Below, one piece after another: positions 2,984 to 64,000 of a stretch of 64,000 nt of DNA. The DNA comes from a virus (Duplodnaviria; Caudoviricetes). The notes below the pieces were generated by a model that was not told the origin of the DNA, searched no databases, and was given only the letters and a program-made list of their open reading frames with translations. Position 1 is the stretch's first letter; the number at the start of each line of letters is the position of its first letter. Location of the stretch: the IMG/VR virus record IMGVR_UViG_3300047497_000053, positions 2,220-66,219 of that record; one strand, written 5' to 3'. The position numbers were made by a program, and so were the translations under genes.

Positions 2984-3553
2984 ATGAGCTCACTTGCCGA
3001 CGACATCCGCCGCCTCATCACTCAGCGCCTCGCGCACGCGACCGATATCGACATTCTGCAACTCGCGAGCGCGCTGTGCGCCAACGAGGATCAGGTAACG
3101 CAGCCGCAAGCAATTAAGCGGCCTCGCTTCACGAAGATCAACGACGAAAGGTTATTCGTGCTCGATGATTCCTCGTCCGACTGGGTCGCCGTTTACGATT
3201 CACTCCACGACCTGACCTGGACGCGCAAGACGCTAGATTGCGGGGAAGTGAATCACGCCGACGCGATGCGTGCCGCCGGCGCCGTCAAGCTGCTGGGAGC
3301 TTCCGACTGGCGCGCGCCGACGATTCAGGAGCGCTTATCCATCGTCGATTACGCCCGGATCGATCCGGCGCTCGACACCGATTACTTCGACGGGTCCAGC
3401 GTCTTGGAATGTACAGGCACGATTGCGGCTGCACCGTCCGAGGTCGCGTGGTTCGTCGCCTCGGGCGCTGGCGGTTCCTCCCGCTATCATCAGAGCCGTC
3501 TGGGCTACGTGCGCGCGGTCCGCGCCGGTCAGCAACTTGGGCGCGTTGATTGA
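2984..3553 (+). CDS. Lcl C-terminal/DUF1566-like protein, putative DGR target 2
   Basis: [23 protein letters not shown] and VRAVR motifs; AGGA RBS. Confidence 0.85.
3432..3532 (+). repeat. DGR-like variable repeat VR2
   Basis: Partner of 2843-2943. Confidence 0.8.
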
Positions 3554-3624
3554 AACCGCTAGCAATTGAGTTGTTTTCCGGCTTATTCGGATGGGGAGAA
3601 GGTCTCGTCATGGAAGGATACGAC
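3550..3624 (+). pseudogene. N-terminal fragment of a C5-cytosine DNA methyltransferase, in frame with csrA
   Basis: [24 protein letters not shown] resembles motif I (DLFxGxGG..G...G) of C5 MTases. Confidence 0.55.
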
Positions 3625-3819
3625 ATGCTAATTCTGACTCGCAGAGTGGAAGAAACCGTATTTATCGGTGACGCGATCACGGTCACCGTGCTCGGCATCA
3701 AAGGCAACCAGGTAAAACTCGGCATCGAAGCGCCGAAGCATATTCCGGTGCATCGGGAAGAAGTCGCCGAGCGGATCGAGGCTGAACGGATTGAAGCGCA
3801 TTTGAAGGGGGATGCATGA
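3625..3819 (+). CDS. csrA: Carbon storage regulator CsrA/RsmA homolog
   Basis: [10 protein letters not shown]...[28 protein letters not shown] is the canonical CsrA sequence; GGAAGGA RBS. Confidence 0.95.
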
Positions 3820-3974
3820 CCTACGCAATGAGCAATGAAGCTGTGATCGAGTCAGCCACAAGCGACCCCCAAGAATGGACCGAGTGGGACGACTACGAAG
3901 AAGCCGGCCCGATGGATTTAGAGGATCAGTTGGAGAAAGCGATGGAGAATCTGCGCGGAAGTGGAAATGTATGA
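3816..3974 (+). CDS. Small acidic protein
   Basis: [13 protein letters not shown]...[18 protein letters not shown]; coupled at both ends; translated by hand. Confidence 0.55.
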
Positions 3975-46804: not shown

Positions 46805-49201
46805 TTACGACTTATCCAAGCCCCGGTCTACATCCGCGATGATTTTGTTGGTTTTCTCGCCGACCGAGGACACGCTTGCTGGCTTGCCGGCCTCGTTCGA
46901 GGGTGCCCTAATCACATCGGATGCCAGCCGGATCGCCGCCTCGCGTTCGGCGGCCTCGCGATCCTGATCGCGGTTCTGATCCTCAACCGACGCCATGCGT
47001 TCTTTCACGGCCACCTCACGCGACTTCGTGTGAGCATCGATGAGTTTCGCCGTCGCCGTGACCATATCGGGCGTGTTGTCTTCAGGTTGTTCCGGATGCT
47101 GCGCCGCGTCGCGCTTGGGTTCGTAGGCGCCGGCCGCCATTTTCGCCTGTACTTCGTCGGCTTTGGCCTTGGCCTCGGCGGCGCGGGCGTTCGCTTCGGT
47201 GACCTTGGCATCGGCCGCCGTTTTCTCGTTCTGCATCTTGGCCTGCATTTCCTGCAATTGCGGCGGCGGCTGCGCGCGGGCTTCTTTCGGCACCATGAAT
47301 TGCTCGGGGTTGGCCCAGCCAATGGCTTGGACGGCAGCGGTGCAGATCGATACCGGATCCATCAAATTCGGCATGGCTTGTTGCAATTGCATGAGCCCCT
47401 GCACCTTCATGACGCGCTGACCCATGCTGGCCGTGTTGGGATCGGCCACAGGCACCAGCTCACAGTTATTGATGGCCTGCAAAAATTTATCCTCGTTCCA
47501 CGCCATGCCCGACTTGCACTTTTTCTGCCAGAAACTCGCCGGGTGTTCTCGGAAAACGTCCACCAGCAATTGGAATTCTTCGGCTTGAGACGCGTGCAAT
47601 CGTTTGTGCACCGAGTTCATGACTTTGACGGCTTGGTCAATGAGCGCAAGCGTCGTGCCCACGGGCGCGTCCGCACGGCCTTCGCCTACTTGCAGCTCGG
47701 ACGTGCCGCCTACGCGCTGGCCGGTCGTCACCATGTCCTGCACCAGCGCCATGAGTGCGGGCATGCCTTGCGTGTTGTACGGCAGCGCCATGATGGATTG
47801 CTGAATCGGCAGACCGCCCGTCTTGATTTGCGCCGCGCCACCTGGGGGCACACGGAAAATGTTGGTGTTTTGTCGAAGGCCGGTGTCCGACATGATAAAG
47901 CCGGGAAAATTCGCGTACATGCCCGAATCCAGCATTTCGCGCCACGCCGCCGTGACTGCGTTCGTCGTGTTGCCCAGAATGTGCAGCAATCCCAGATCGT
48001 AGAATCCAAAGCCAGGCACGAACGTGAATTTCACGTAGCGCTTGCGCGCGGTCGGTAGTTCTTGATCGTCTTGGTTGTAATTGCGCGTGAGCGCGAGCAA
48101 CTGCTGCGAGGATACGTCGATGGTCGCGACGTACGGAATCTCAAGCCCCGAGTCCTTGCCTTTGTGCCGGTGCGCGTAGCCTGGCACGTCCAATTCGCAC
48201 TGAATTTCGTAGATTTCGCGGTCGCGATCCGGGTCTAAGATGCCGGTATCGGTGATACCTGCGATTTCTTTTTCGCCCAACTGCACCGAATCTAATTCGG
48301 GCATGATCGGCGTGGACAGTTCCACGTCGCGGTACACGCCCAAAATCTGCAAACGCTTGATCGTTGAGGGGCGCATCATGACGCGGTGCGTGATGCGTCG
48401 GGCGTTTTCCAGATTCACCGCCGATTGGTTGACGATGATGTCATCCGCATCCACGGATTCGGACACGGGACGATTGCGCAGCGGGCAGAAATACACTTTC
48501 TTGAACGTCGTGCCGCCCAATCCCAGCATTAACAGCATCCGGTCGGTGTCCGGGTAATACTCGGTGGCGTGCGCGGTCAGGTAGTGATTCATGTCGCGTT
48601 CGTAGGCGTTCGCGAGCTGATCCTCTTTCAAGTCCGCGTTGTTATCGTCGTTGCGAATTTTGACCGGCCCATCGGTCGGCAAGAGTTCTGCGCGGGCGTT
48701 CGCGTTGAAGCGCAGCACCGCTTCCAAGAGGAGCGGGTGACGCACCTTGGACATGCCTTCAACGGGCGCGCCGTCGGTGGACCCTTGCACGTTCGGGATT
48801 TCAATCTTGAGCCCGAGCAACGTGAGACCTTGAGCGCGCGATTCGATCCAATCCTTGCGCGAATCAATGTCCTGGCGCACCCCTAAGAGCAGTTTTTGAA
48901 CGATGTGGGAGCATTCGTCGGCGGAGAGTTTTTGCGCCAAATTGCCGAACCATTCGTCGGGTTCTTCCGCCGCGCCAGCTTCTTGCAGCGGTTTTCCGTC
49001 CATTGAAATCGTGACGCTGCCGTCGGCGTGGTTGATTTTGACGACATTGCCCGCGTCGTCAAAATCGGGGATGTCATCGGTGTCAGAAGTTGTGTCAACG
49101 ATGACTTGGATGGGGTCCAACGACTCCGAATCAGGTTCACCCACCAACCGCAGATTCGCGCGGCCCATGCTGGCGGCGCCCAAGCCCGCCGCCGCGCTCA
49201 C
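46805..49201 (-). CDS. Portal protein
   Basis: SR.DW, HP.L.EA...F.A.A..EL.P..GPVK, F.PG.GFY..GL.H and PVGTT.AL motifs; follows terL. Confidence 0.9.
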   Translation of the reverse strand: MSAAAGLGAASMGRANLRLVGEPDSESLDPIQVIVDTTSDTDDIPDFDDAGNVVKINHADGSVTISMDGKPLQEAGAAEEPDEWFGNLAQKLSADECSHIVQKLLLGVRQDIDSRKDWIESRAQGLTLLGLKIEIPNVQGSTDGAPVEGMSKVRHPLLLEAVLRFNANARAELLPTDGPVKIRNDDNNADLKEDQLANAYERDMNHYLTAHATEYYPDTDRMLLMLGLGGTTFKKVYFCPLRNRPVSESVDADDIIVNQSAVNLENARRITHRVMMRPSTIKRLQILGVYRDVELSTPIMPELDSVQLGEKEIAGITDTGILDPDRDREIYEIQCELDVPGYAHRHKGKDSGLEIPYVATIDVSSQQLLALTRNYNQDDQELPTARKRYVKFTFVPGFGFYDLGLLHILGNTTNAVTAAWREMLDSGMYANFPGFIMSDTGLRQNTNIFRVPPGGAAQIKTGGLPIQQSIMALPYNTQGMPALMALVQDMVTTGQRVGGTSELQVGEGRADAPVGTTLALIDQAVKVMNSVHKRLHASQAEEFQLLVDVFREHPASFWQKKCKSGMAWNEDKFLQAINNCELVPVADPNTASMGQRVMKVQGLMQLQQAMPNLMDPVSICTAAVQAIGWANPEQFMVPKEARAQPPPQLQEMQAKMQNEKTAADAKVTEANARAAEAKAKADEVQAKMAAGAYEPKRDAAQHPEQPEDNTPDMVTATAKLIDAHTKSREVAVKERMASVEDQNRDQDREAAEREAAIRLASDVIRAPSNEAGKPASVSSVGEKTNKIIADVDRGLDKS

Positions 49202-49454: not shown

Positions 49455-51074
49455 TCAGGCGGGATAGAGGGGTTCGGCCTGTCGGCCGGGGTATATCTTC
49501 AAGGATTCTAATTCTTCGGCGCGTTCGGTGGCGCGACTGATGAGTCCATTGTCGCGCAAATGCCGCAGCGCCTGCGAAACCGTATCGGTTAAGTCATCGT
49601 GCTTGGAGTGCGGAAATTGCGACGCTTCCGAAATCACCATATCGGCAAACGTGTACTTGGGTGCATAAATAATCCCTTCCGCAAACAAGTGCTGCACTGA
49701 ATACAAGCGTGATAATTTGTCCTGCGACTTTGGGTCAAACAGTTGCACGCCGAATTTCTTGTTGTAATACAAGCGCCTGATTTCTTGCGCTACCGAGATG
49801 CCGGCCGCTTTGTTTTCAATGAGCAAGAGGTCCACCTTATGCTTGATGCAGCGGCGCGCGACTTCTTCCACCAGATTATGCAGTTCCAGCCGATCCCGCC
49901 ATGCATCAATCATGATGACCTTGGGTGCGGTCTCGTTGTAACTGCGGTCAATCACCAGCGGCCGGCCTTGCGGGTCCACCAATCGACCGGGATGCGCGAC
50001 GGTATCCGTTGAGAACACGCCCCAGATGGTCAGCGCCGAGTAATCGTTTGACGTTTTCATCGTGTAGGCGGTGTCCAACGACGCCAACACGAAATCAAGC
50101 GGCGGCAACGCTTCGGTTTCCCACACTTGCCACCACTCGCGCCGGATAATGCCACCGCCGATGGGTTCCGGACGCTGTTGCAATTGCCCATTCGCGATCA
50201 TCGGACCCAATGATTTTTCAAGCGACCGCACGGCCGCTTCGTCAAACCGTTCAGGCCAGAGCAATTGGCCTTCAACGGTGCGCGGATCGCTCCAGCCGAT
50301 GACGGTAGTGCGTGCTCGATCTGATTCATAGCGCATGGGCAGACAAAGATGAACCCATTCATCGCCGTTGGAATCCAATATGTAGCCAGTCAGATCATCC
50401 TCGGCCAAACGCTGCTGAATCACGATGTACGCGCCCGTTGCCATATCGTTGAGGCGCGTGCTCATTGATTGCGTCCACCAATCAATCGTCGTTTGGATGG
50501 CGGCTTCTGAGAAAGCTTCGCCGGCAGAATTCGGATCGTCCGCTATGATGCACGTCCCGCCCTCCCCAGTTACGCCCGCGCCGATGGACGTAATCAATCG
50601 TTCGCCGCCCTTGTCGTTGGTGAATCGTGACTTCGTGTTTTGATCGGATGTTAATTTGAAACGCGATCCCCAGCGTTCTTGATACCATTGCGATTCAATG
50701 AGGCGACGGCTTTTAACGGAATCCCGAAGCGATAGTTTGTCCGCATAGGACGCATACAAAAACTGCGCGCCTGGACCGCAGATGGGCCCGTGTGCGGGTT
50801 GCGCCCACACCCACGGCCCAAACGCCACAGAAATGAGGCTCGACTTGGCCATTCTTGGAGGGACGTTGACCACAAGCCGCTTAATATCGCCATCACAAAC
50901 GGCCTGCAGGTGCTCCGCAATCGCTTGCACAACCCAACCGTCTTTCCACGGATTCGGATCAATATACCGCCACGCACTTCTCAAAAACTGATACAGCGAT
51001 TGCTCACATTCGTATCGATTCACATCCAGAAGCTGCGCTTTCGGATCAAACGCTTGGCCGTTATAGTTCAGCAT
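49455..51074 (-). CDS. terL: Terminase large subunit
   Basis: NVPPRMAKS, IIADDP, QQRL...DL.G, QQ.P, DTA, IENKAAG and HDD..D motifs. Confidence 0.95.
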   Translation of the reverse strand: MLNYNGQAFDPKAQLLDVNRYECEQSLYQFLRSAWRYIDPNPWKDGWVVQAIAEHLQAVCDGDIKRLVVNVPPRMAKSSLISVAFGPWVWAQPAHGPICGPGAQFLYASYADKLSLRDSVKSRRLIESQWYQERWGSRFKLTSDQNTKSRFTNDKGGERLITSIGAGVTGEGGTCIIADDPNSAGEAFSEAAIQTTIDWWTQSMSTRLNDMATGAYIVIQQRLAEDDLTGYILDSNGDEWVHLCLPMRYESDRARTTVIGWSDPRTVEGQLLWPERFDEAAVRSLEKSLGPMIANGQLQQRPEPIGGGIIRREWWQVWETEALPPLDFVLASLDTAYTMKTSNDYSALTIWGVFSTDTVAHPGRLVDPQGRPLVIDRSYNETAPKVIMIDAWRDRLELHNLVEEVARRCIKHKVDLLLIENKAAGISVAQEIRRLYYNKKFGVQLFDPKSQDKLSRLYSVQHLFAEGIIYAPKYTFADMVISEASQFPHSKHDDLTDTVSQALRHLRDNGLISRATERAEELESLKIYPGRQAEPLYPA

Positions 51075-52880: not shown

Positions 52881-53269
52881 ATCGCCCCCTCGGTCACTTT
52901 CCGAAAATTCACGGACATGCTGTAGTAGCCGTTGGATTCGCCGCACCAGCGAATCGTCACGCCGCCTTTTGCCGTGTCAATTTTATAGAACGTCCACAAT
53001 GCCTCTGATTTGGGTTCCGCGCGACCTTCCGGTTTATCATGGCTTTCAACCTCCTCGGCAATCAAAATCGGGCTGCCGATGATATCCGCCAAATCGCCGA
53101 CAATTTCTTCAACCTCAACTGATTCACAGCAATCTTGCTCGTGATACGCCTGAAACGTTTCTCCATTGTCGCAGATGAAATCAATCGCGTAACCGCCCTC
53201 GGCAACCACCACTGAAGTTAATGTTTTGCCGACCAGCACATCAAACGTAGCCCGACCCCCGTAACTCAC
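52877..53269 (-). CDS. Conserved phage protein (HxQDCCE...WTFY...GESNGYYS)
   Basis: Distinctive conserved motifs; function unknown. Confidence 0.75.
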   Translation of the reverse strand: MSYGGRATFDVLVGKTLTSVVVAEGGYAIDFICDNGETFQAYHEQDCCESVEVEEIVGDLADIIGSPILIAEEVESHDKPEGRAEPKSEALWTFYKIDTAKGGVTIRWCGESNGYYSMSVNFRKVTEGAM

Positions 53270-53532
53270 GACTCATCTCCGCGCACCGGCAGCTCCGCCT
53301 GCAAATCATATCCGCTGCGCCGGCCGACCGTGCGCGCCCACTTGCCACGGCGTTCCAACAAACCCCGCACGTAGTCCTCCAATTTCAACCCAGTCTCCCA
53401 CGCCTCCATCGCCAGCGCCGCGTGCAAGGATTTTGACATGCGTAGTTTCATGAGCTCGGTGCGCGGTAGCGGCGGCCGGGCGCGCAGCGGCTTCGGCGGT
53501 GCAAGTCGTTCATATAAAGGTACCCGGCTCAC
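53266..53532 (-). CDS. Ribbon-helix-helix protein (HicB C-terminal-like)
   Basis: LRMSKSLHAALA.EA...G..L..YV..LL. Confidence 0.65.
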   Translation of the reverse strand: MSRVPLYERLAPPKPLRARPPLPRTELMKLRMSKSLHAALAMEAWETGLKLEDYVRGLLERRGKWARTVGRRSGYDLQAELPVRGDES

Positions 53533-53933: not shown

Positions 53934-54136
53934 CGTTTATCCTCGGCTAATTCGCCCTGCCCCACCTCGGCCTCGGACACCACCGCTGGCTTCACCGCCA
54001 GCGTCAGCACCCACGTCACGAAATCCTGGATCGTCATATCACGTTCGCCGGCCGCCGCGTGCAACTGCCGATGCACGTCGGGGCAGACGTGCACGTTCAA
54101 GCGCTTGTGCCCGAAGATTTTGCGGGGTCGGCCCAT
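53930..54136 (-). CDS. Ribbon-helix-helix protein (ParG/CopG-like)
   Basis: KRLNVHV.PDVH.QL...A....MTIQDFV..VL. Confidence 0.65.
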   Translation of the reverse strand: MGRPRKIFGHKRLNVHVCPDVHRQLHAAAGERDMTIQDFVTWVLTLAVKPAVVSEAEVGQGELAEDKR

Positions 54137-54150
54137 GATTTACTGGTGCC

Positions 54151-54209
54151 TCAATTTAATACTGGAATGGCCCATGGGTTAACGATCCTTCAATTTAATA
54201 CTGGAATGG
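54151..54209. repeat. 20-bp direct repeat tcaatttaatactggaatgg x2 (operator-like)
   Basis: Copies at 54151-54170 and 54190-54209, upstream of the RHH gene. Confidence 0.85.
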
Positions 54210-54220
54210 AGCATGTGTGA

Positions 54221-54249
54221 ATAGTCGTGGTTGCGTCAGATAATGTCAA
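54221..54249 (-). promoter_or_regulatory. Sigma70-like promoter TTGACA-17-GACTAT
   Basis: Perfect -35, weak -10; upstream of the 20-bp repeats. Confidence 0.4.
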
Positions 54250-54293
54250 CGGCTCTTGCCGCAACGGCGACCGCCCCGCACACCGCGCTGCGC

Positions 54294-54902
54294 CTAAACC
54301 CGACCCTTCGCGATCTGCTCATCGCGAATCAGAAAAAATTCGTCGCGGGACATGGGAAGCCAAGCGCCCGATATCCACCCACTGAAATTCTCATAGTCTG
54401 CCTCCCGGCTCTCCGTGATAAACCGGGGCGGCAGTCTTGAAGTCAGCGGCCACGCCGTCAATTTCTTCTTTGCGGGCTTTTCGAGCTCGCGCGGCGGTGG
54501 CTGATTGCTTGGCGCCGTTGCCAGCACTGCTGCCCTATTTTCGGGGCGCGTCGGGGCGACTGCCGTGACCTCGGTCTGCGTGACCTCAGCATCATCAGTT
54601 TCCCCGGTCGGGTATTTTGCGTCCTCCCTGGCCTGCGCCCGAGCCAGAATCGCCGCAAACCGACGCGCCTTGCCGGCCGGTACGTCAATCACGCAAGGCG
54701 TCACCTTGCCCCACGACCCTTCAACGCCCAGCGAGGTGTTCCTCAGTTCGTTGCGCAGCATACCGACCACACCTTCTTGAATCGTCTGTCCATGTTCGGC
54801 GAATAACGTCTCCAATTCTTCGTACATACTCGGTGGTACGAACACATGGAGCTTGACCCTCTTTTTGGTATCAAACTTGTCAGCGTAATACTCACGCGGC
54901 AT
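54294..54902 (-). CDS. Protein with N-terminal RHH-like domain
   Basis: KRVKLHVFVPPSMYEEL......GQTIQE.V...L; GGAG RBS. Confidence 0.6.
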   Translation of the reverse strand: MPREYYADKFDTKKRVKLHVFVPPSMYEELETLFAEHGQTIQEGVVGMLRNELRNTSLGVEGSWGKVTPCVIDVPAGKARRFAAILARAQAREDAKYPTGETDDAEVTQTEVTAVAPTRPENRAAVLATAPSNQPPPRELEKPAKKKLTAWPLTSRLPPRFITESREADYENFSGWISGAWLPMSRDEFFLIRDEQIAKGRV

Positions 54903-54919
54903 ATCTTTCTCCGGTTACA

Positions 54920-55285
54920 TGGTATGTGACTGTATGTATCATTTATTGTGAACCTAATCAGTGGTTTTTTGTGTGGGTGTTGCTGTAACTGGGTTGGCCA
55001 TATTTTAAGTGACTGGCTTGGTTACCTTTTAAGTGAGTGTTTGTGTCTCTGTGAGTGTCACATTTCGTGTGGGTGTATCAGTGCCTTACAATCCCATTTA
55101 TACACTCACATGTTGAGTAATAGGATATGCTCCTGTATCGGTGACTGTTCAAGTGCGTTTATGAGTCACATTTATGGTGAGTGTTTATGCCACTCACATG
55201 GTGGCAGTTAATACACCAAATCAGTGATACCCCGGATACTCAATCAGTCACATACCTTGGTACACGTAGTGTGATATACATTACA
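54920..55285. repeat. AT-rich array of TGA[GC]T / A[CG]TCA boxes
   Basis: At least 12 copies in both orientations in non-coding DNA. Confidence 0.7.
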
Positions 55286-55637
55286 CCATTACAGGTACGG
55301 TGCCGGTATGCGGTCGGCGCAAAGAACCAGTACTTCGGGTCCCTCGCTGGCTAAAAAGCGGGGGTACCCCACCCCCAAAAACCTGGCAGGAAACGGGCGG
55401 GCGCCTATTGGGAGGGTGTGTTCGTTTCGGCCGGCGCGTCGCTCAGCATCGCGGCGATCGATCCAGGGCCGTAAATGCGCCCAGATGGCGCTAGGTAGCC
55501 CGCTGCGCTGAGTTCTCCAGCTATGCCGCGTTAATGTCAGCCCTTGGGCTAGGGGCTGGCTGGCGAGCGCTTGAGCGGCTGGCGACGCGAGACAGCGCCG
55601 ATCCGTGGCGACGGCCGAATGCGATTGATGCATTGCG

Positions 55638-55665
55638 GCATCGCATAATAACCATTATGTTAAAT
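55638..55665 (+). other. dif-like XerC/XerD recombination site
   Basis: GCATCGCATAA-TAACCA-TTATGTTAAAT. XerD arm is identical to E. coli dif, XerC arm shares CGCATAA, spacer is 6 bp. Confidence 0.85.
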
Positions 55666-55944
55666 TAAAATCAGCGTTTCACGCGCCTGAACAGCCAATT
55701 CGACCCATTTTGTAACAGCGCGCTAATACAAATGTCGCGTTTGAGATGGTTTATTGCGCAGATTATGCGGCATCACATGCCGGTAATTTATCCACTCTGC
55801 GGTCATTTGCCGATCTGGTTTGCGAGATCGCGAGCGTGGCGAGGGCGATTGGCCCGCATATATGAATCAAATTCATACAAACCGCCGTTTTTTATGAAAT
55901 CCGCTCATGTTGACGACCGACGTATAAGAGGTCATTTGTTGCGT

Positions 55945-56280
55945 TAGTAAACCAGCCCGGTTTACTAGCGATTTTCTCTATATCGTACGATATAAATAAC
56001 ACTATCTTAAGATAGTGTAATTAGAGTGTTGCTTATAACCCATTGATCTATATCTTATTATTACACTCTAACAGTATATACACTATATATAGAACATATA
56101 TACGTTAGTAAGTAGAGGATATAGCCACACCCATAGCTGACGCAGACAACAGATTACTAGAGGTTATGGGCGAAACAAGTGTTAGAAGTGTTAGAGTGTA
56201 ATTTCCCGAATGGGATCAAAGACTTAAGTCATACACTAAGATATTTTTATTTTTGTCAGAGTGTATCAAGTGTTATTGGC
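55945..56280. other. Putative replication origin (AT-rich, palindromes, AGTGT/ACACT iterons)
   Basis: Palindromes at 55979-55994 and 55999-56018; hairpin at 55945-55967; about ten AGTGT/ACACT boxes; downstream of the primase gene. Confidence 0.6.
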
Positions 56281-56387
56281 ATGCTATTTGCTAATCGGAA
56301 CGGGAGAGTCAGAAATACCCGCCGCTGCCAACGCGCAGCCAATAACCTTATGATGCTAACATACGAGCGTGATTGAAGGAGAACGCG

Positions 56388-56747
56388 ATGGCTGAATCGG
56401 TGATGGCTGAATCGTCGGAACCGGTTTCGCTAGACAACGGATCGCACGCAGCGCTGCCCAAATACCTGCAATTTGCAGCCGCTGAGGCGCAGGTTACGGT
56501 TGAACTGAATTGTTCGGTTGAATACATCGGCGACGGCGTCTATGAATGGACCATGTTCATGCGCCGTGATCCGAGTGTTGCTCGTAAGCGTGGCAAACGA
56601 GGCGAATGGAATCGCATTGCGTTGGCGTCGGGCACGGCGTTTAGCCGCAAGGCCGCATTTAAAGCTGCGCGTCGCGCGATTGCGGGGCATCGCAATGCGT
56701 TGGCACGGGATGCCTATGCGAGGATTGTGGGCGATCAGCGCGGATAG
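56388..56747 (+). CDS. Hypothetical protein
   Basis: AAGGAG RBS before ATG 56388; only + strand gene in this block. Confidence 0.6.
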   Translation: MAESVMAESSEPVSLDNGSHAALPKYLQFAAAEAQVTVELNCSVEYIGDGVYEWTMFMRRDPSVARKRGKRGEWNRIALASGTAFSRKAAFKAARRAIAGHRNALARDAYARIVGDQRG

Positions 56748-56810
56748 AACGTGCGCGCGATGTGACGGGAGAGCGCCAGCGTAGCGCGGTTATCGGTCCG
56801 CGTTGTGCGG

Positions 56811-59102
56811 TTATCGGTCCGCGTTGTGCGGCGCAATCCGATCCGCGCGGGGAAACCACGCGCGCTGACCGCGAATCGTTTGCTGGATGAAATGCGCATC
56901 GCGCAAGATCGTTGCGATGCGGTTTTTTTCCTTCTGAGTCTGCTTGTACAACGGCATCTCCAAGCCGAACTGAAGGATGTCGGCCGAGGTCAGCAAGCGG
57001 TGCGTGCCGTGCCGTTTGTTTTCCTCGATGAGATTTTCCGCGAAACGCAGCGTGGCTTCGCGCCAGAGGTCTGGTTCGTGCCGGGCGGCCTGTTCGGCCT
57101 GCGTTTCATCGTCGGGCATTTCGTGCCACGTGTAGCCCTTGCGATAGTGGTGCACCGCTTCGGCAAAGAGATGATCGCGCTGTTGGGCTAGTGCATCTAA
57201 GTCAATGTGGGTGCAGCGGATGGGCCAAAAGCGGCGCTTGCCCAAAAGACTGATGAGATAGTCATCCGTCTCGGAGGTCGCTGCGAACACGCAACCGCGT
57301 GGGTGATCTTGGGCCAACCGTCCGTAAGACTCGCGAAAGCGATCCCGGCGTGTTGTGATGGTGGAGAGAATCACCGAATAATCGCGTTGCCGAAACCCGG
57401 CCATGTCCGGAATTTCCACGAGCCAGCAGCCTTGGATGGCCTCCAGAAATGCGCGATCCCCGATGGCGGTGTTGACGGTTTCGTACCACTCACCGCCCAG
57501 CATCGCGAGGAGCGACGTTTTACCGCGTCCCATCGTGCCCTCGAGCACCGGCATGTGATCGACTTGGCAGCCGGGTTGAAAGGCGCGCGCGACCATGGAG
57601 ATGAGCCAGTTGCGGCCGAGGCATTGCAGGTAGTGCGTGTTCTCGGCGCTCGTGATATCGGTGAGCCAATTCTCCAGTCTGGGTTGGCCGTCCCACACGA
57701 GGGCGTTGAGATAATCGTGCAGCGAATTTTTGGCGTTCACGGTCGCCGCGTGCAGCACCGCCTCGTGCATGAGACCTGAGTTGAATTTGGAGAGTCGCAT
57801 GGATTGCTGCACGAAAATGGTGAGTTCGCGCGTGTCTTGGTCGCTCCACTCGCGTTTCGTGCCCTTCATGGTGTGCCAGACTTTGTGTTGAAACGTGTCC
57901 AGCCAGATTTTGCCGTTGACGTGCGGATGGCGCAGGATAATTGAGCTGGCGTTTGCGAGAGTGGGAAATGGCAATCCTTGGTGCGATTTGGCGAGGCCCA
58001 GACTGTCCCAATCGGTGAGCGACGCGTGCCCGTTGATGACTCGGACGGGTTCATTGATGTCGTATTCGTTGGGTTCGGACGTGTCGTCGTGGGGTTCGTA
58101 TTCGTGTGCGTCGTCGGGTTCGCCGAGTGCGGAAACGGTCGTCGCGGGTGTCTGCGGCGCGTTAATCGGCACAGCCCGCTGGTCAATGTAGACCGCGATT
58201 CGCGCCGCATCCCACCCATCGGCAATCGCGTCCGCTACATCCCAACCGCGTGGACGGTCAGGTTCTGGGTTGACAACACAGATGTGGTTACAGATCGGCG
58301 TCAGCGCGTGGATGATGTCCGTCGCGGCCTTGCGTCCTGGATCGTCCGCGTCTGGCCAGATTGTGACGCGTCGGCCCGTGAGCGGCGTCCAATCGCTTTG
58401 CTTGACGGCAATCGCACCGCCGGCCCACGTGATCACGATGGCATCTAAAATCGGCGGCTGATTGGGGTCGGCGATGAGTTTGGTGAATTCGTCCGCGCAG
58501 CGTTCGCCCTCGACGATAATCACGGGGCGGCTGGGGTTCGCTTGTAGTTCGCGGCGGTGATACAACGGCCTCGGTGCAGGATATGCGGTCGCAGACCACT
58601 TCCCCGCTCGCCACGTGTATTGCAGGAACCGCTTGGCGATGTCGTTGCCCTGCACGATATCGTAGCGCAGCACCCAAAAGTCGTTGCCGTACTCGGCGCG
58701 GTGCGACGGTTCCCCATACGTCCAGTGCGGCGTGGGCGGCGTAGCATCGTCCGGAATGCGCTCAGGCGGCGCACGCGCGGGTTTGGGCGCGATGCGCGGT
58801 AATTCTCGTCCCAAGGGCGGAAAGGCCCCCACGTCACGGCTCAAGAGGTCGTACGCGGCGCCGTTCTCGATCTGACGCAGAGCCGCCACGGCTGAGATGA
58901 TGTCGCCGCCCGCGCGTCCCGTAGCGAAATGCTGCCACTTGCCCGTGTCCAATGAGATGGACCACGAATCGCCGGGGCCGCCCTTGGATGTGGATTCGCC
59001 GATCCACTGCCGGCCGACTTTGCGACCGCCGAAATACTGCGGCAGTAGCAATTCGGCTTGCGCCAAACAGGCCGCCGCAAGGCCCTTAAAATCGTGGGCC
59101 AC
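56811..59102 (-). CDS. Primase-helicase (TOPRIM plus VapE/VirE-type ATPase)
   Basis: IVEGE...WPDAD.PG...WDVAD TOPRIM; EG..G.GKT, R..YG and G.RRFWP ATPase motifs. Confidence 0.9.
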   Translation of the reverse strand: MAHDFKGLAAACLAQAELLLPQYFGGRKVGRQWIGESTSKGGPGDSWSISLDTGKWQHFATGRAGGDIISAVAALRQIENGAAYDLLSRDVGAFPPLGRELPRIAPKPARAPPERIPDDATPPTPHWTYGEPSHRAEYGNDFWVLRYDIVQGNDIAKRFLQYTWRAGKWSATAYPAPRPLYHRRELQANPSRPVIIVEGERCADEFTKLIADPNQPPILDAIVITWAGGAIAVKQSDWTPLTGRRVTIWPDADDPGRKAATDIIHALTPICNHICVVNPEPDRPRGWDVADAIADGWDAARIAVYIDQRAVPINAPQTPATTVSALGEPDDAHEYEPHDDTSEPNEYDINEPVRVINGHASLTDWDSLGLAKSHQGLPFPTLANASSIILRHPHVNGKIWLDTFQHKVWHTMKGTKREWSDQDTRELTIFVQQSMRLSKFNSGLMHEAVLHAATVNAKNSLHDYLNALVWDGQPRLENWLTDITSAENTHYLQCLGRNWLISMVARAFQPGCQVDHMPVLEGTMGRGKTSLLAMLGGEWYETVNTAIGDRAFLEAIQGCWLVEIPDMAGFRQRDYSVILSTITTRRDRFRESYGRLAQDHPRGCVFAATSETDDYLISLLGKRRFWPIRCTHIDLDALAQQRDHLFAEAVHHYRKGYTWHEMPDDETQAEQAARHEPDLWREATLRFAENLIEENKRHGTHRLLTSADILQFGLEMPLYKQTQKEKNRIATILRDAHFIQQTIRGQRAWFPRADRIAPHNADR

Positions 59103-63456: not shown

Positions 63457-64000
63457 ATGACAAAAATTATTCGACTGCTAAATAAGGCAACCGGTGGCAT
63501 CACGCCAGAAGAAAAGCAGCGCATGGACGAACATGCGTCTGCTTGGATTGCTAACGCGATGCGCACCGATACGGTAAATCCAGATGTTCTTACGCGTGCA
63601 ATGAAGGATTTGTATCGCGTATCGGGACTCAAAGAACCTCGCGTGGTCATCGTTGCGAGCCCGCGCATTATGGCCATGGCAGGCGGTTTCGCTGCTGCCA
63701 TTTGGTGGCTGAGAAAGAATACCGACGCGACCGACGCGACCCGCGCCGCGACCTACGACGCGACCAGCGTCGCGACCTACGACGCGACCTACGACGCGAC
63801 CAGCGTCGCGACCGACGCCGCGACCCGCGCCGCGACCCGCGCCGCGACCGACGACGCGACCCGCGCCGCGACCGACGCCGCGACCCGCGCCGCGACCCGC
63901 GCCGCGACCCGCGCCGCGACCCGCGCCGCGACCCGCGCCGCGACCTACGACGCGACCAGCGTCGCGACCTACGACGCGACCTACGACGCGACCAGCGTCG
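63457..64000 (+). CDS. DUF6745-type protein, N-terminal part with 12-bp repeats (runs off the window)
   Basis: Translated by hand: ITPEEK...W...LY..SGL.EP.VV.V.SP, then xxAT repeats. Confidence 0.7.
   Translation, partial: MTKIIRLLNKATGGITPEEKQRMDEHASAWIANAMRTDTVNPDVLTRAMKDLYRVSGLKEPRVVIVASPRIMAMAGGFAAAIWWLRKNTDATDATRAATYDATSVATYDATYDATSVATDAATRAATRAATDDATRAATDAATRAATRAATRAATRAATRAATYDATSVATYDATYDATSV
63721..64000 (+). repeat. 12-bp degenerate tandem repeat (NNC GNC GCG ACC)
   Basis: tac gac, cgc gcc, agc gtc, gac gcc or gac gac, each followed by gcg acc. Confidence 0.95.

What the first reader, a model, noticed from the sequence alone, without database searches (positions are those of the whole stretch)
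55638..55665. A tailed phage with a chromosomal-type dif (XerC/XerD) site and no integrase in view
Seen: GCATCGCATAA TAACCA TTATGTTAAAT in non-coding DNA about 300 bp from the putative origin. Established: E. coli dif is GGTGCGCATAA TGTATA TTATGTTAAAT, and Xer-exploiting elements are mostly filamentous phages, satellites, islands and plasmids. Inference: the phage either integrates at host dif using host XerCD, or uses XerCD to resolve multimers of a circular replicon. The non-canonical spacer favours resolution or integration needing an accessory factor.
Basis: partly seen in the sequence, partly recalled or inferred. Interest (0 to 1): 0.8.

Follow-up and report, generated by a model that had tools for sequence, protein, structure and literature searches.

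The report
Host-type dif site in tailed phages
This uncultured tailed phage carries one well-conserved copy of the short DNA site that bacterial XerC/XerD recombinases act on, and similar single sites occur in many other tailed phages, including lytic coliphages, so phages may use this host enzyme for something other than lysogeny.

Summary
The 28-mer is real, at 55638-55665. It lies in a 1.9-kb non-coding gap of a 66-kb tailed-phage record that has no tyrosine or serine recombinase, ParB or XafT-like gene.

The site is under constraint. Eleven of the 16 closest relatives (36-48% primase identity), plus one weaker case, carry a single dif-like site in the same place. The XerC arm is almost invariant, the XerD arm is recognisable, and the 6-bp spacer varies freely.

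I found no support for integration at host dif. No close prophage turned up in a scan covering 185,579 species genomes. Every close relative sits on a contig of 75 kb or less.

The feature is much wider than this phage:
- More than 112 IMG/VR contigs hold perfect-armed sites, mostly with non-chromosomal spacers.
- In 43 of 44 loci where TerL was detectable, the site lies just upstream of it.
- Cultured lytic phages also carry one site in a long gene-poor gap: rV5-like Murica and 4MG, a Pseudomonas Ounavirinae phage, and Pseudoalteromonas H101.

Best reading (about 0.45): host XerCD recombines copies of the phage's own private-spacer site, for multimer resolution or P1 lox-like cyclisation. My literature searches found no description of this.

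The parts
55638..55665 (+). dif-like site: XerC-type arm 55638-55648 (GCATCGCATAA), 6-bp spacer 55649-55654 (TAACCA), XerD-type arm 55655-55665 (TTATGTTAAAT)
   Evidence: Read directly. Unique in the window with 0.01 expected by chance. Positional homologues in relatives.
54903..56810 (.). 1.9-kb non-coding gap holding the site. AT-rich repeat clusters lie at about 54940-55290 and 55975-56270, with a GC-rich core at 55303-55602.
   Evidence: ORF and GC3 analysis. Repeats. GC per 100 bp and GAGTGT/AGTGTT repeats. Cumulative GC-skew minimum near 55 kb. No Rfam match.
55302..55415 (-). Conserved non-coding block on the XerC-arm side. It includes a terminator-like hairpin plus T-run on the minus strand at 55377-55359.
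   Evidence: blastn and tblastx matches to L003, L006 and L010. Alignment by eye in 9 family members. Terminator scans.
55942..55970 (+). Terminator-like hairpin on the plus strand, at the end of the small ORF 55732-55947
   Evidence: The ORF has no family match.
56811..59102 (-). Primase/helicase (VapE-like) gene. Its stop codon lies 1146 bp from the site.
   Evidence: PF05272, E = 2.6e-63. PHROG helicase/primase families. Used to find relatives.
54294..54902 (-). First gene on the other side of the gap (202 aa, no family). It heads a run of small minus-strand genes leading to the terminase.
49455..51074 (-). Terminase large subunit. The site lies about 4.6 kb upstream of its start.
   Evidence: phrog_38, E = 4.5e-81. 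The same site-upstream-of-TerL layout appears in 43 of 44 other loci.

Best explanation
The 28-mer is a genuine binding and recombination site for the host's XerC/XerD recombinases, and the phage family keeps it. Its spacer is 'private', meaning it differs from the spacers seen in sampled chromosomal dif sites. The site would therefore not complete an exchange with the host's dif, but it can recombine with another copy of itself. The most likely use is recombination between phage copies. One option is turning circular multimers of the replicating genome back into monomers, as plasmid cer/psi sites do. The other is joining the two copies present in a terminally redundant, headful-packaged molecule so that it circularises after injection, as P1 does with lox near pac. 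Shown here: the site, its conservation pattern, its uniqueness per genome, its position, and the absence of any phage recombinase. Inferred: XerCD binding, catalysis, and which recombination product matters.
For: 1. Site anatomy. Two 11-bp arms and a 6-bp spacer, with the XerD arm matching E. coli K12 dif 11/11. Chance expectation is 0.01 per window.
2. Conservation. Of the 16 viral loci with at least 36% primase identity, 11 have a site scoring 35-44 bits on a matrix built from the sites, and the next-best hit in each locus scores 13.5 bits or less. L011 has a weaker site (13.1 bits) at the same place. None of the 66 more distant loci has one. Eight positions in and beside the arms are invariant in all 12 (C2, C5, G6, T9, A10, A11, T12, G22) and most other arm positions are the same in 11 of 12. 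Spacer positions 13-16 vary freely. That is the pattern expected of Xer sites.
3. Position. The sites lie 245-3978 bp downstream of the primase gene, and 10 of 12 lie within 1.5 kb. Three of the 12 are inverted relative to the primase gene, which argues against a promoter.
4. Uniqueness. There is one match and no control match in each of the complete relatives G001-G003.
5. The relatives' XerC arm, ACTTCGCATAA, is exactly the XerC arm of chromosomal dif in sampled Pseudomonadota. Of 401 genomes, 81 have a match and none has a control match.
6. No phage recombinase or activator: PF00589, PF00239 and DUF3653 are all absent.
7. Private spacers. In 56 of 80 perfect-armed viral sites the spacer is not TGTATA, with 36 spacer kinds in all. 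About half of the 88 chromosomal rows are TGTATA (my hand count, 43). No site with the TAACCA spacer was found in 401 Pseudomonadota genomes.
8. Link to packaging. In the 44 loci where TerL was detectable, the site is upstream of the TerL start in 43, at 130-3500 bp. It lies between TerS and TerL in L284 and L268, and just upstream of TerS in L215, L236 and L252.
9. Cultured lytic phages carry one site each in a long gene-poor gap. Murica has both arms equal to E. coli dif with spacer TGGGTA. The others are 4MG, Pseudomonas phage vB_PsaM_M1 and Pseudoalteromonas phage H101.
Against: - No binding or recombination was tested, and no recombination product was seen.
- Phages that package from concatemers do not obviously need dimer resolution.
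- This phage has its own RecT-like annealing protein and a VRR-NUC/Holliday-junction-resolvase-like nuclease, so it could circularise without Xer.
- Four of the 16 close relatives lack a site.
- In two other runs, contigs of close strains skip or diverge over about 55504-55788, which holds the site (one contig each, laid at 88% likeness, so weak).
- Recalled knowledge: XerCD at dif needs FtsK, and at plasmid sites it needs accessory proteins acting on supercoiled DNA. Neither requirement is shown to be met here.
- The pac site and the packaging direction are unknown, so the P1 analogy is untested.
- One bacterial chromosome contig (L171, Parabacteroides-like) carries a site 27/28 identical to the window's, including the spacer. 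So TAACCA can sit in a chromosome, and the host's own spacer is unknown.
Confidence: 0.45

Rival explanations
1. XerC/XerD (and perhaps FtsK) bind the site but recombination is not the point. The bound complex could act as an architectural factor at the replication/packaging junction, in the way IHF acts at lambda cos. It could act as a stop or unloading signal for a host DNA translocase. Or many phage copies could act as a sponge that titrates the scarce Xer proteins and disturbs host chromosome segregation and division.
For: The arms are conserved while the spacer is free, which binding alone would also explain. The site sits next to terS/terL in many lineages, where cos or pac sites usually lie (recalled). 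Lytic phages carry it. By its title and abstract in the search listing, PMC2800217 reports that FtsK translocation stops at XerCD-dif.
Against: The spacer length is strictly 6 bp. The base next to the XerC cleavage position (T12) is invariant, and A17 is present in 10 of 12 sites. That fits a catalytically competent site, though it does not prove one. No precedent was found for XerCD as a packaging or architectural factor (no such paper in searches).
Confidence: 0.2
2. The phage is temperate and integrates at the host's dif using host XerCD (an IMEX), with the 28-mer as attP.
For: There is a dif-like site and no integrase. Known integrase-less IMEX phages have the same logic (PMC12715192 passages; PMC2731167 passages). 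The one complete relative that encodes its own tyrosine recombinase (G005) has no dif-like site, a hint of either/or use with n = 1. T12 next to the XerC cleavage point is invariant, which is all a one-strand CTX-type exchange would need (recalled mechanism). A chromosomal site 27/28 identical exists in one bacterial lineage.
Against: The best primase relatives in a scan covering 185,579 species genomes are only 26-32% identical, and none of those 80 loci has a dif-like site within 10 kb. All 120 listed primase relatives lie on contigs of 75 kb or less, with many at 54-75 kb, the size of the free genome. No repressor, excisionase, XafT-like or partition gene was recognised. Spacers differ from those of sampled chromosomal dif sites and from one another. 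The same kind of site occurs in phages known as lytic. No loose end was seen at the site core in the source-like run (contigs only, so rare forms would be missed).
Confidence: 0.15
3. The motif is not a Xer site in function. It could be the operator of a phage DNA-binding protein, or a pair of divergent -10-like elements (CATAAT on both strands) that merely resembles dif.
For: The dif core contains CATAAT/ATTATG, and a promoter-like match on the minus strand uses it. The site sits in a regulatory gap with terminator-like hairpins on both sides. Most genes of the phage have no known function.
Against: Promoter-like matches in the gap are no more frequent than in shuffles (3 against 2.6). The outer arm positions (ACTTCG... 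and ...AAAT) are conserved as well and match chromosomal dif arms exactly. The orientation flips in 3 of 12 relatives. The same 28-bp architecture recurs in unrelated phages of 26-64% GC. In coliphage Murica both arms equal the E. coli arms.
Confidence: 0.1

Closest known systems
Chromosomal dif with XerC/XerD and FtsK (E. coli and other Pseudomonadota)
   Same: 28-bp layout, arm sequences (XerD arm identical) and a single copy per replicon.
   Different: The spacer is TAACCA rather than TGTATA. The site lies beside the presumed origin and the early/late gene junction, not at a replication terminus. It sits on a 66-kb phage genome. FtsK dependence is unknown.
Plasmid multimer-resolution sites acted on by host XerCD (ColE1 cer, pSC101 psi)
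   Same: A host-recombinase site on a foreign replicon with its own spacer, no recombinase gene, a location near the replication region, and conserved non-coding DNA on the XerC-arm side. That is the side where plasmid accessory sequences lie (recalled).
   Different: No PepA, ArgR or ArcA sites were tested. In the relatives the XerC arm is the better conserved one, the opposite of what I recall for cer and psi. The carrier is a tailed phage with no partition genes.
IMEX attP sites (CTXphi, VGJphi, TLCphi, dif-type double-jelly-roll phages, Bacteroidetes and gokusho-type microviruses)
   Same: A phage with a dif-like site and no integrase. Degenerate XerD arms in several relatives recall the attP types described in passages of PMC12715192.
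   Different: No integrated copy was found. There is no XafT/DUF3653 gene. The carrier is a 66-kb tailed dsDNA phage. In the passages I read, IMEX phages are filamentous, double-jelly-roll or microviruses, and tailed phages are described as integrase-encoding.
Phage P1 loxP/Cre
   Same: One recombination site per genome lying close to the packaging genes. P1's site serves both cyclisation of terminally redundant DNA and plasmid dimer resolution (recalled, not checked in a paper here).
   Different: P1 encodes its own recombinase, Cre, and is a plasmid prophage with a partition system. Here the recombinase would be the host's, and no lysogeny functions are seen.
Acinetobacter plasmid pdif modules
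   Same: XerC/D-type sites with varied spacers on mobile DNA (listing and abstracts).
   Different: pdif sites come in multiple, alternating-orientation pairs that bracket cargo modules. The phages have a single site.

Membership tests
Xer (dif-type) recombination site | 11-bp XerC arm, 6-8 bp central region and 11-bp XerD arm, with inverted inner halves | tested here: met
   for the window.
Xer (dif-type) recombination site | Arms under selection while the central region is free to vary between replicons | tested here: met
   eight positions are invariant in all 12 sites (C2, C5, G6, T9, A10, A11, T12, G22) and most other arm positions agree in 11 of 12, while positions 13-16 vary; 36 spacer kinds among 80 viral sites.
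Xer (dif-type) recombination site | Bound and cut by XerC and XerD | not testable with these tools
   Needs EMSA and in vivo or in vitro recombination assays.
IMEX (integrative mobile element exploiting Xer) | No recombinase of its own, with a dif-like attP | tested here: met
IMEX (integrative mobile element exploiting Xer) | Found integrated at a chromosomal dif, flanked by dif or hybrid sites | tested here: not met
   the 80 best genome loci are at most 32% identical and none has a dif-like site within 10 kb; relatives lie only on contigs of 75 kb or less; no loose end at the core. Absence in these samples is not proof.
IMEX (integrative mobile element exploiting Xer) | Lysogeny control or a Xer activation factor (RstR/XafT type) | tested here: not met
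   DUF3653 is absent. No repressor was recognised. Many ORFs remain unassigned.
Plasmid-type Xer multimer resolution site (cer/psi) | Accessory sequences of about 180 bp on the XerC side that bind PepA with ArgR or ArcA | tested here: inconclusive
   A conserved non-coding block lies 30-260 bp from the XerC arm in 9 family members. It reads like tandem terminators, and no ArgR/ArcA box test was made.
Plasmid-type Xer multimer resolution site (cer/psi) | The carrier is maintained as a circular replicon through cell divisions | not testable with these tools
   No ParB gene. No relatives appeared as plasmid-like contigs in genomes.
Phage-plasmid | Partition system plus plasmid replication and maintenance genes | tested here: not met
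   No ParB_N match. No partition family was found among the proteins scanned. ParA families were not searched separately.

The most novel reading that the evidence does not exclude
Tailed phages of many lineages, including strictly lytic ones such as the rV5-like coliphages, keep a single dif site with host-matched arms and a private spacer beside their replication/packaging junction. They depend on the host's XerCD (possibly with FtsK) during ordinary lytic growth, for example to circularise or monomerise the genome or to commandeer the cell's chromosome-segregation checkpoint. XerCD would then be a general, previously unrecognised host factor for tailed phages. The spacer would act as a lineage-specific 'address' that prevents crossing over with the host chromosome or with other phages.
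Probability: 0.3. Interest if true: 0.85.

Novelty: new variant of a known kind. Interest (0 to 1): 0.72.

Why it matters
Use of host XerCD by viruses is known for filamentous, microvirus and double-jelly-roll phages, always as a way to lysogenise. Here the same site is conserved in a tailed-phage family with no sign of lysogeny. It also recurs in many unrelated tailed phages next to their terminase genes, and it is present in cultured lytic coliphages.

If the site works, XerCD would be a host factor for lytic tailed phages. That would add a predicted phage-host dependency and a possible resistance route. The arm sequences could serve as a host-prediction signal, because they track the host's dif. 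The private spacer would explain how foreign replicons borrow a chromosomal recombinase without crossing over with the chromosome.

The idea can be tested directly in E. coli K-12 with rV5-like phages and existing xerC, xerD, ftsK and dif mutants.

Tried and rejected
- Near-identity searches found nothing. The region has no match in GenBank phages. The primase as a single protein found no relative in IMG/VR. The exact 28-mer is absent from IMG/VR.
- There is no Rfam match in 54000-57500 and no tRNA in the window.
- ORFs in the gap (55289-55633 minus strand, 55732-55947 plus strand) have no Pfam or PHROG match. Only short tblastx traces appear in L006 and L010, and I treated those as non-coding conservation.
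- DnaA boxes are not enriched in the window, so I do not use them for the origin call.
- I tested whether sites pile up at contig ends, as an assembly fork at an attachment site would produce. Five of 49 whole metagenome contigs have the site within 150 bp of an end, against 5.2 expected. Five of 42 viral contigs do, against 1.7 expected. I rejected this as evidence.
- G245:C70, a 14-kb contig with a second, odd-spacer site in one bacterial genome, has no tblastx similarity to the phage. I dropped it.
- Methylophilales phage MEP301, the nearest cultured TerL relative of one site-bearing group, has no site within the 9 kb examined at 5 mismatches or fewer.
- Laying contigs of four runs gave no junction at the site core. 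The parts without cover in X3, X4 and X6 are not evidence.
- Paper supplements were closed and I did not ask for them. Table S2 of PMC2731167 (the full dif list) and the supplements of PMC12715192 could show chromosomal TAACCA spacers or tailed IMEXs that I could not see.

Full report
THE OBSERVATION

The window is bases 2220-66219 of a 66,219-bp IMG/VR virus record that CheckV rates complete. Both record ends lie inside a 12-bp tandem repeat, so the assembly probably broke in a repeat of a circular or permuted genome.

The sequence GCATCGCATAA TAACCA TTATGTTAAAT sits exactly at 55638-55665. The E. coli K12 dif is printed in a table passage of PMC2731167 as GGTGCGCATAATGTATATTATGTTAAAT. Against it, the XerD arm matches 11/11, the XerC arm 8/11 (the inner seven bases are exact) and the spacer 2/6. 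The arm pattern, allowing up to three mismatches, occurs once in the window. The chance expectation is 0.01.

THE CARRIER

It is a tailed phage.
- Structural and packaging genes: large terminase (49455-51074), portal (46805-49201) and tail genes.
- Replication and recombination genes: a VapE-type primase/helicase (56811-59102), two further helicases, a RecT-like protein and a VRR-NUC/resolvase-like nuclease.
- Other recognised genes: a CsrA homologue and a DNA methylase.
- Six-frame searches of the whole record found no tyrosine recombinase, serine recombinase, ParB or DUF3653/XafT-like domain.
- No repressor or partition family appeared among the 40 ORFs I scanned. Most small ORFs have no family at all.

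The closest GenBank phage is distant, with 46% identity in the terminase.

THE SURROUNDINGS

The site lies in a 1.9-kb gap without convincing genes (54903-56810).
- The gap has two AT-rich clusters of short GAGTGT/AGTGTT-type repeats, at about 54940-55290 and 55975-56270. GC falls to 24% at 56003-56102.
- Between the clusters lies a GC-rich core (55303-55602, 64-66% GC). The site sits at the core's right edge.
- Cumulative GC skew has a local minimum near 55 kb although the flanking genes are on the same strand. That fits an origin.
- DnaA boxes are not enriched, so the origin remains an inference.
- Terminator-like hairpins face inwards from both sides: 55377-55359 on the minus strand and 55942-55970 on the plus strand.

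CONSERVATION IN RELATIVES

The primase has many relatives at 40-49% identity on metagenomic contigs of up to 75 kb, many of them 54-75 kb. An alignment of 25 of them retrieved 80 viral loci.

Of the 16 loci with at least 36% identity, 11 carry a dif-like site. These sites score 35-44 bits on a matrix built from the sites themselves, and the next-best hit in each locus scores 13.5 bits or less. L011 has a weaker site (13.1 bits, canonical TGTATA spacer) at the same place. None of the other 66 loci has one at four mismatches or fewer.

The sites lie 245-3978 bp downstream of the primase gene, and 10 of 12 are within 1.5 kb. Nine share the window's orientation and three are inverted. In three complete relatives the site is unique in the genome, with no control matches.

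The conservation pattern is that of a Xer site.
- Eight positions are invariant in all 12 sites: C2, C5, G6, T9, A10, A11, T12 and G22. Most other positions in ACTTCGCATAAT and in the TATG..AAA part of the XerD arm agree in 11 of 12.
- Spacer positions 13-16 vary freely.
- The spacer length is always six.

The window, L005 and L006 share the spacer TAACCA.

The relatives' XerC arm is exactly the XerC arm of chromosomal dif in several sampled Pseudomonadota. Of 401 genomes, 81 had a match within two mismatches, and none matched the backwards control.

A second conserved non-coding element lies 30-260 bp from the XerC arm in nine family members. It contains terminator-like hairpins with T-runs, a GTACCGGTAC palindrome and GGGTCCC boxes.

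INTEGRATION WAS LOOKED FOR AND NOT FOUND

- A scan covering one genome for each of 185,579 species, run with the primase alignment, returned only 26-32% identical homologues, mostly in betaproteobacterial genomes. None of those 80 loci has a dif-like site within 10 kb.
- No close relative lies on a contig longer than 75 kb.
- In the source-like run, contigs show no loose end at the site core. Contigs would miss rare forms.
- Two complete relatives lack the site. One of them has its own tyrosine recombinase. This is a hint of alternative solutions, with n = 1.
- In two other runs, contigs of close strains skip or diverge over about 55504-55788. There was one contig in each, laid at 88% likeness, so I give this little weight.

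THE FEATURE IS WIDESPREAD

A metagenome scan for the inner arms plus TAACCA found 55 contigs. About 40 of them have full dif-like arms at positions the pattern did not specify, in DNA of 26-64% GC. Only one of the 55 is a relative of this phage.

Of the 80 sites I read, 24 have the spacer TGTATA and 56 have one of 35 other spacers.

Using four terminase queries, I could detect TerL in 44 of 149 such loci. In 43 of the 44 the site lies upstream of the TerL start, at 130-3500 bp. Eleven of the 44 are near-duplicates, and the rest span at least ten terminase lineages. PHROG scans confirm the layouts:
- TerS | site | TerL in L284 and L268.
- Site | TerS | TerL in L215, L236 and L252.
- Replication initiator | site | ... 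TerL in L271.

Nine of ten further site-bearing viral records lack a tyrosine recombinase. Five records checked have one site each.

CULTURED LYTIC PHAGES ALSO HAVE IT

A BLAST search with a canonical site found 200 GenBank phage records. Besides the known IMEX phages (CTXphi, TLC, microviruses, Acinetobacter filamentous phages), these include 101 Escherichia phage records. Every Escherichia row among the 40 listed is a 132-149 kb phage, and the two I opened belong to the Vequintavirinae.
- Phage Murica has GGTGCGCATAA TGGGTA TTATGTTAAAT. Both arms equal E. coli dif and the spacer differs. The site lies in a 1.76-kb CDS-free gap full of short direct repeats.
- Phage 4MG has GGTTCGCATAA CGTGTA TTATGTTAAAT.
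- Pseudomonas phage vB_PsaM_M1 (Ounavirinae) has TCTTCGCATAA TGGTCA TTATGTTAAAT.
- Pseudoalteromonas phage H101 has ACTACCTATAA TGTGTA TTATGTTAAAT.

Each of these lies in a long gene-poor gap. That these groups are lytic is my recollection. The records show no lysogeny annotation in the regions I read.

WHAT IT MOST LIKELY DOES

Shown:
- a site with the anatomy, conservation pattern and host-matched arms of a XerC/XerD substrate;
- one copy per genome;
- a location at the replication/packaging junction;
- phages that encode no recombinase.

Inferred: host XerCD binds and acts on it.

The spacers differ from the chromosomal ones sampled and from each other. A full two-strand exchange with the host's dif would therefore be blocked, while exchange between two copies of the same phage site is always possible. 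That is the logic of plasmid cer/psi sites, and of P1 loxP, which lies near pac and both circularises terminally redundant DNA and resolves dimers (recalled).

I therefore favour recombination between phage copies, by resolution or cyclisation, at about 0.45. The rivals are:
- binding without recombination, as an architectural factor, a translocase stop or a Xer sponge (about 0.2);
- IMEX-type integration (about 0.15);
- a non-Xer protein site or promoter (about 0.1).

The remainder is unassigned.

Arguments against my favoured reading:
- No biochemical test was possible.
- Phages that package concatemers do not obviously need resolution.
- The phage has its own RecT-like protein.
- Four close relatives lack the site.
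- One Parabacteroides-like chromosome contig (L171) carries a site 27/28 identical to the window's, spacer included. The host's spacer therefore remains unknown, even though none of 401 sampled Pseudomonadota genomes has a TAACCA site.

COMPARISON WITH WHAT IS IN PRINT

I read passages of four papers.
- PMC2731167 lists filamentous phages and the gonococcal island as dif users.
- PMC12715192 describes inoviruses and double-jelly-roll phages as IMEXs, and describes tailed phages as integrase-encoding.
- PMC3091885 describes microvirus proviruses flanked by dif-like sites.
- PMC8026635 says plasmid prophages usually carry their own Xer-like recombinases and partition genes.

Nine full-text searches returned no paper describing dif-like sites in lytic tailed phages, in Vequintavirinae, or next to terminase genes. 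These searches cover only the open library.

VERDICT

The integration reading is not supported. The resolution-type reading is plausible. The phenomenon looks like an unreported, widespread variant of Xer exploitation, and it can be tested in E. coli with phages already in culture.

Noticed in passing
G000 contig ends (genome 1-200 and the last 200 bases; the start lies outside the window, the end at about window 63800-64000): Both ends of the record lie in a 12-bp-period tandem repeat (GCGACCNNCGNC-like). The assembly probably broke inside a repetitive gene, so the 'linear' label is an artefact.
   Followed up: partly
window 3550-3819 (+); 2464-2949 and 2984-3553 (+): The phage encodes a CsrA-family global regulator homologue (PF02599, E = 1.3e-24) and two proteins with Lcl C-terminal domains (PF07603).
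   Followed up: no
L171 5653-5671 (1.74-Mb metagenome contig): A bacterial chromosome contig has TCATCGCATAA TAACCA TTATGTTAAAT in an intergenic region. Its genes include PFK, an S41 protease, HtpG and a Mur ligase, and the HtpG is about 90% identical to one named Candidatus Parabacteroides intestinavium. The site is 27/28 identical to the window's. It may be that lineage's dif or an IMEX junction.
   Followed up: partly
L209 1305-1323; L212 213-231: Two metagenome contigs have a site with two XerC-type arms in perfect inverted repeat around the TAACCA spacer (ACTTCGCATAA TAACCA TTATGCGAAGT).
   Followed up: no
window about 55504-55788: In contigs of two other runs (X3, X4) close strains match on both sides, but a contig skips or diverges over this 285-bp stretch that holds the site. 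A third run (X6) keeps it with 4 differences. One contig each, laid at 88% likeness.
   Followed up: partly
G005 (contig of L016) 52948-53379: The only complete family member with its own tyrosine recombinase (E = 1.9e-14) is one of the two complete members without a dif-like site.
   Followed up: partly
window 55763-55773 (-): A lone inverted XerC-arm-like half-site (inner CGCATAA exact) lies 98 bp from the main site, inside a 13-nt direct repeat of the sequence next to the XerC arm (D17). There is no XerD arm beside it, and it is compatible with chance.
   Followed up: partly
G245:C70 5624-5651 (L164): One Pseudomonadota genome with a canonical dif also has a second perfect-armed site with spacer TAAGCA on a 14-kb contig. 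That contig is unrelated to the phage and is possibly a plasmid.
   Followed up: partly
L346 (Phage C72C1, OQ984150.1) locus 3838-3865 (-): A complete 34.9-kb GenBank phage has a degenerate dif-like site (TTGTCGCATAA CGTCCA TTATGTAATCT) between its annotated small terminase gene and the large terminase homologue. Two tiny annotated CDSs overlap it.
   Followed up: no
window 56387-56414: An exact 13-nt direct repeat, GATGGCTGAATCG, occurs twice 15 bp apart near the primase-proximal end of the gap (D16).
   Followed up: no
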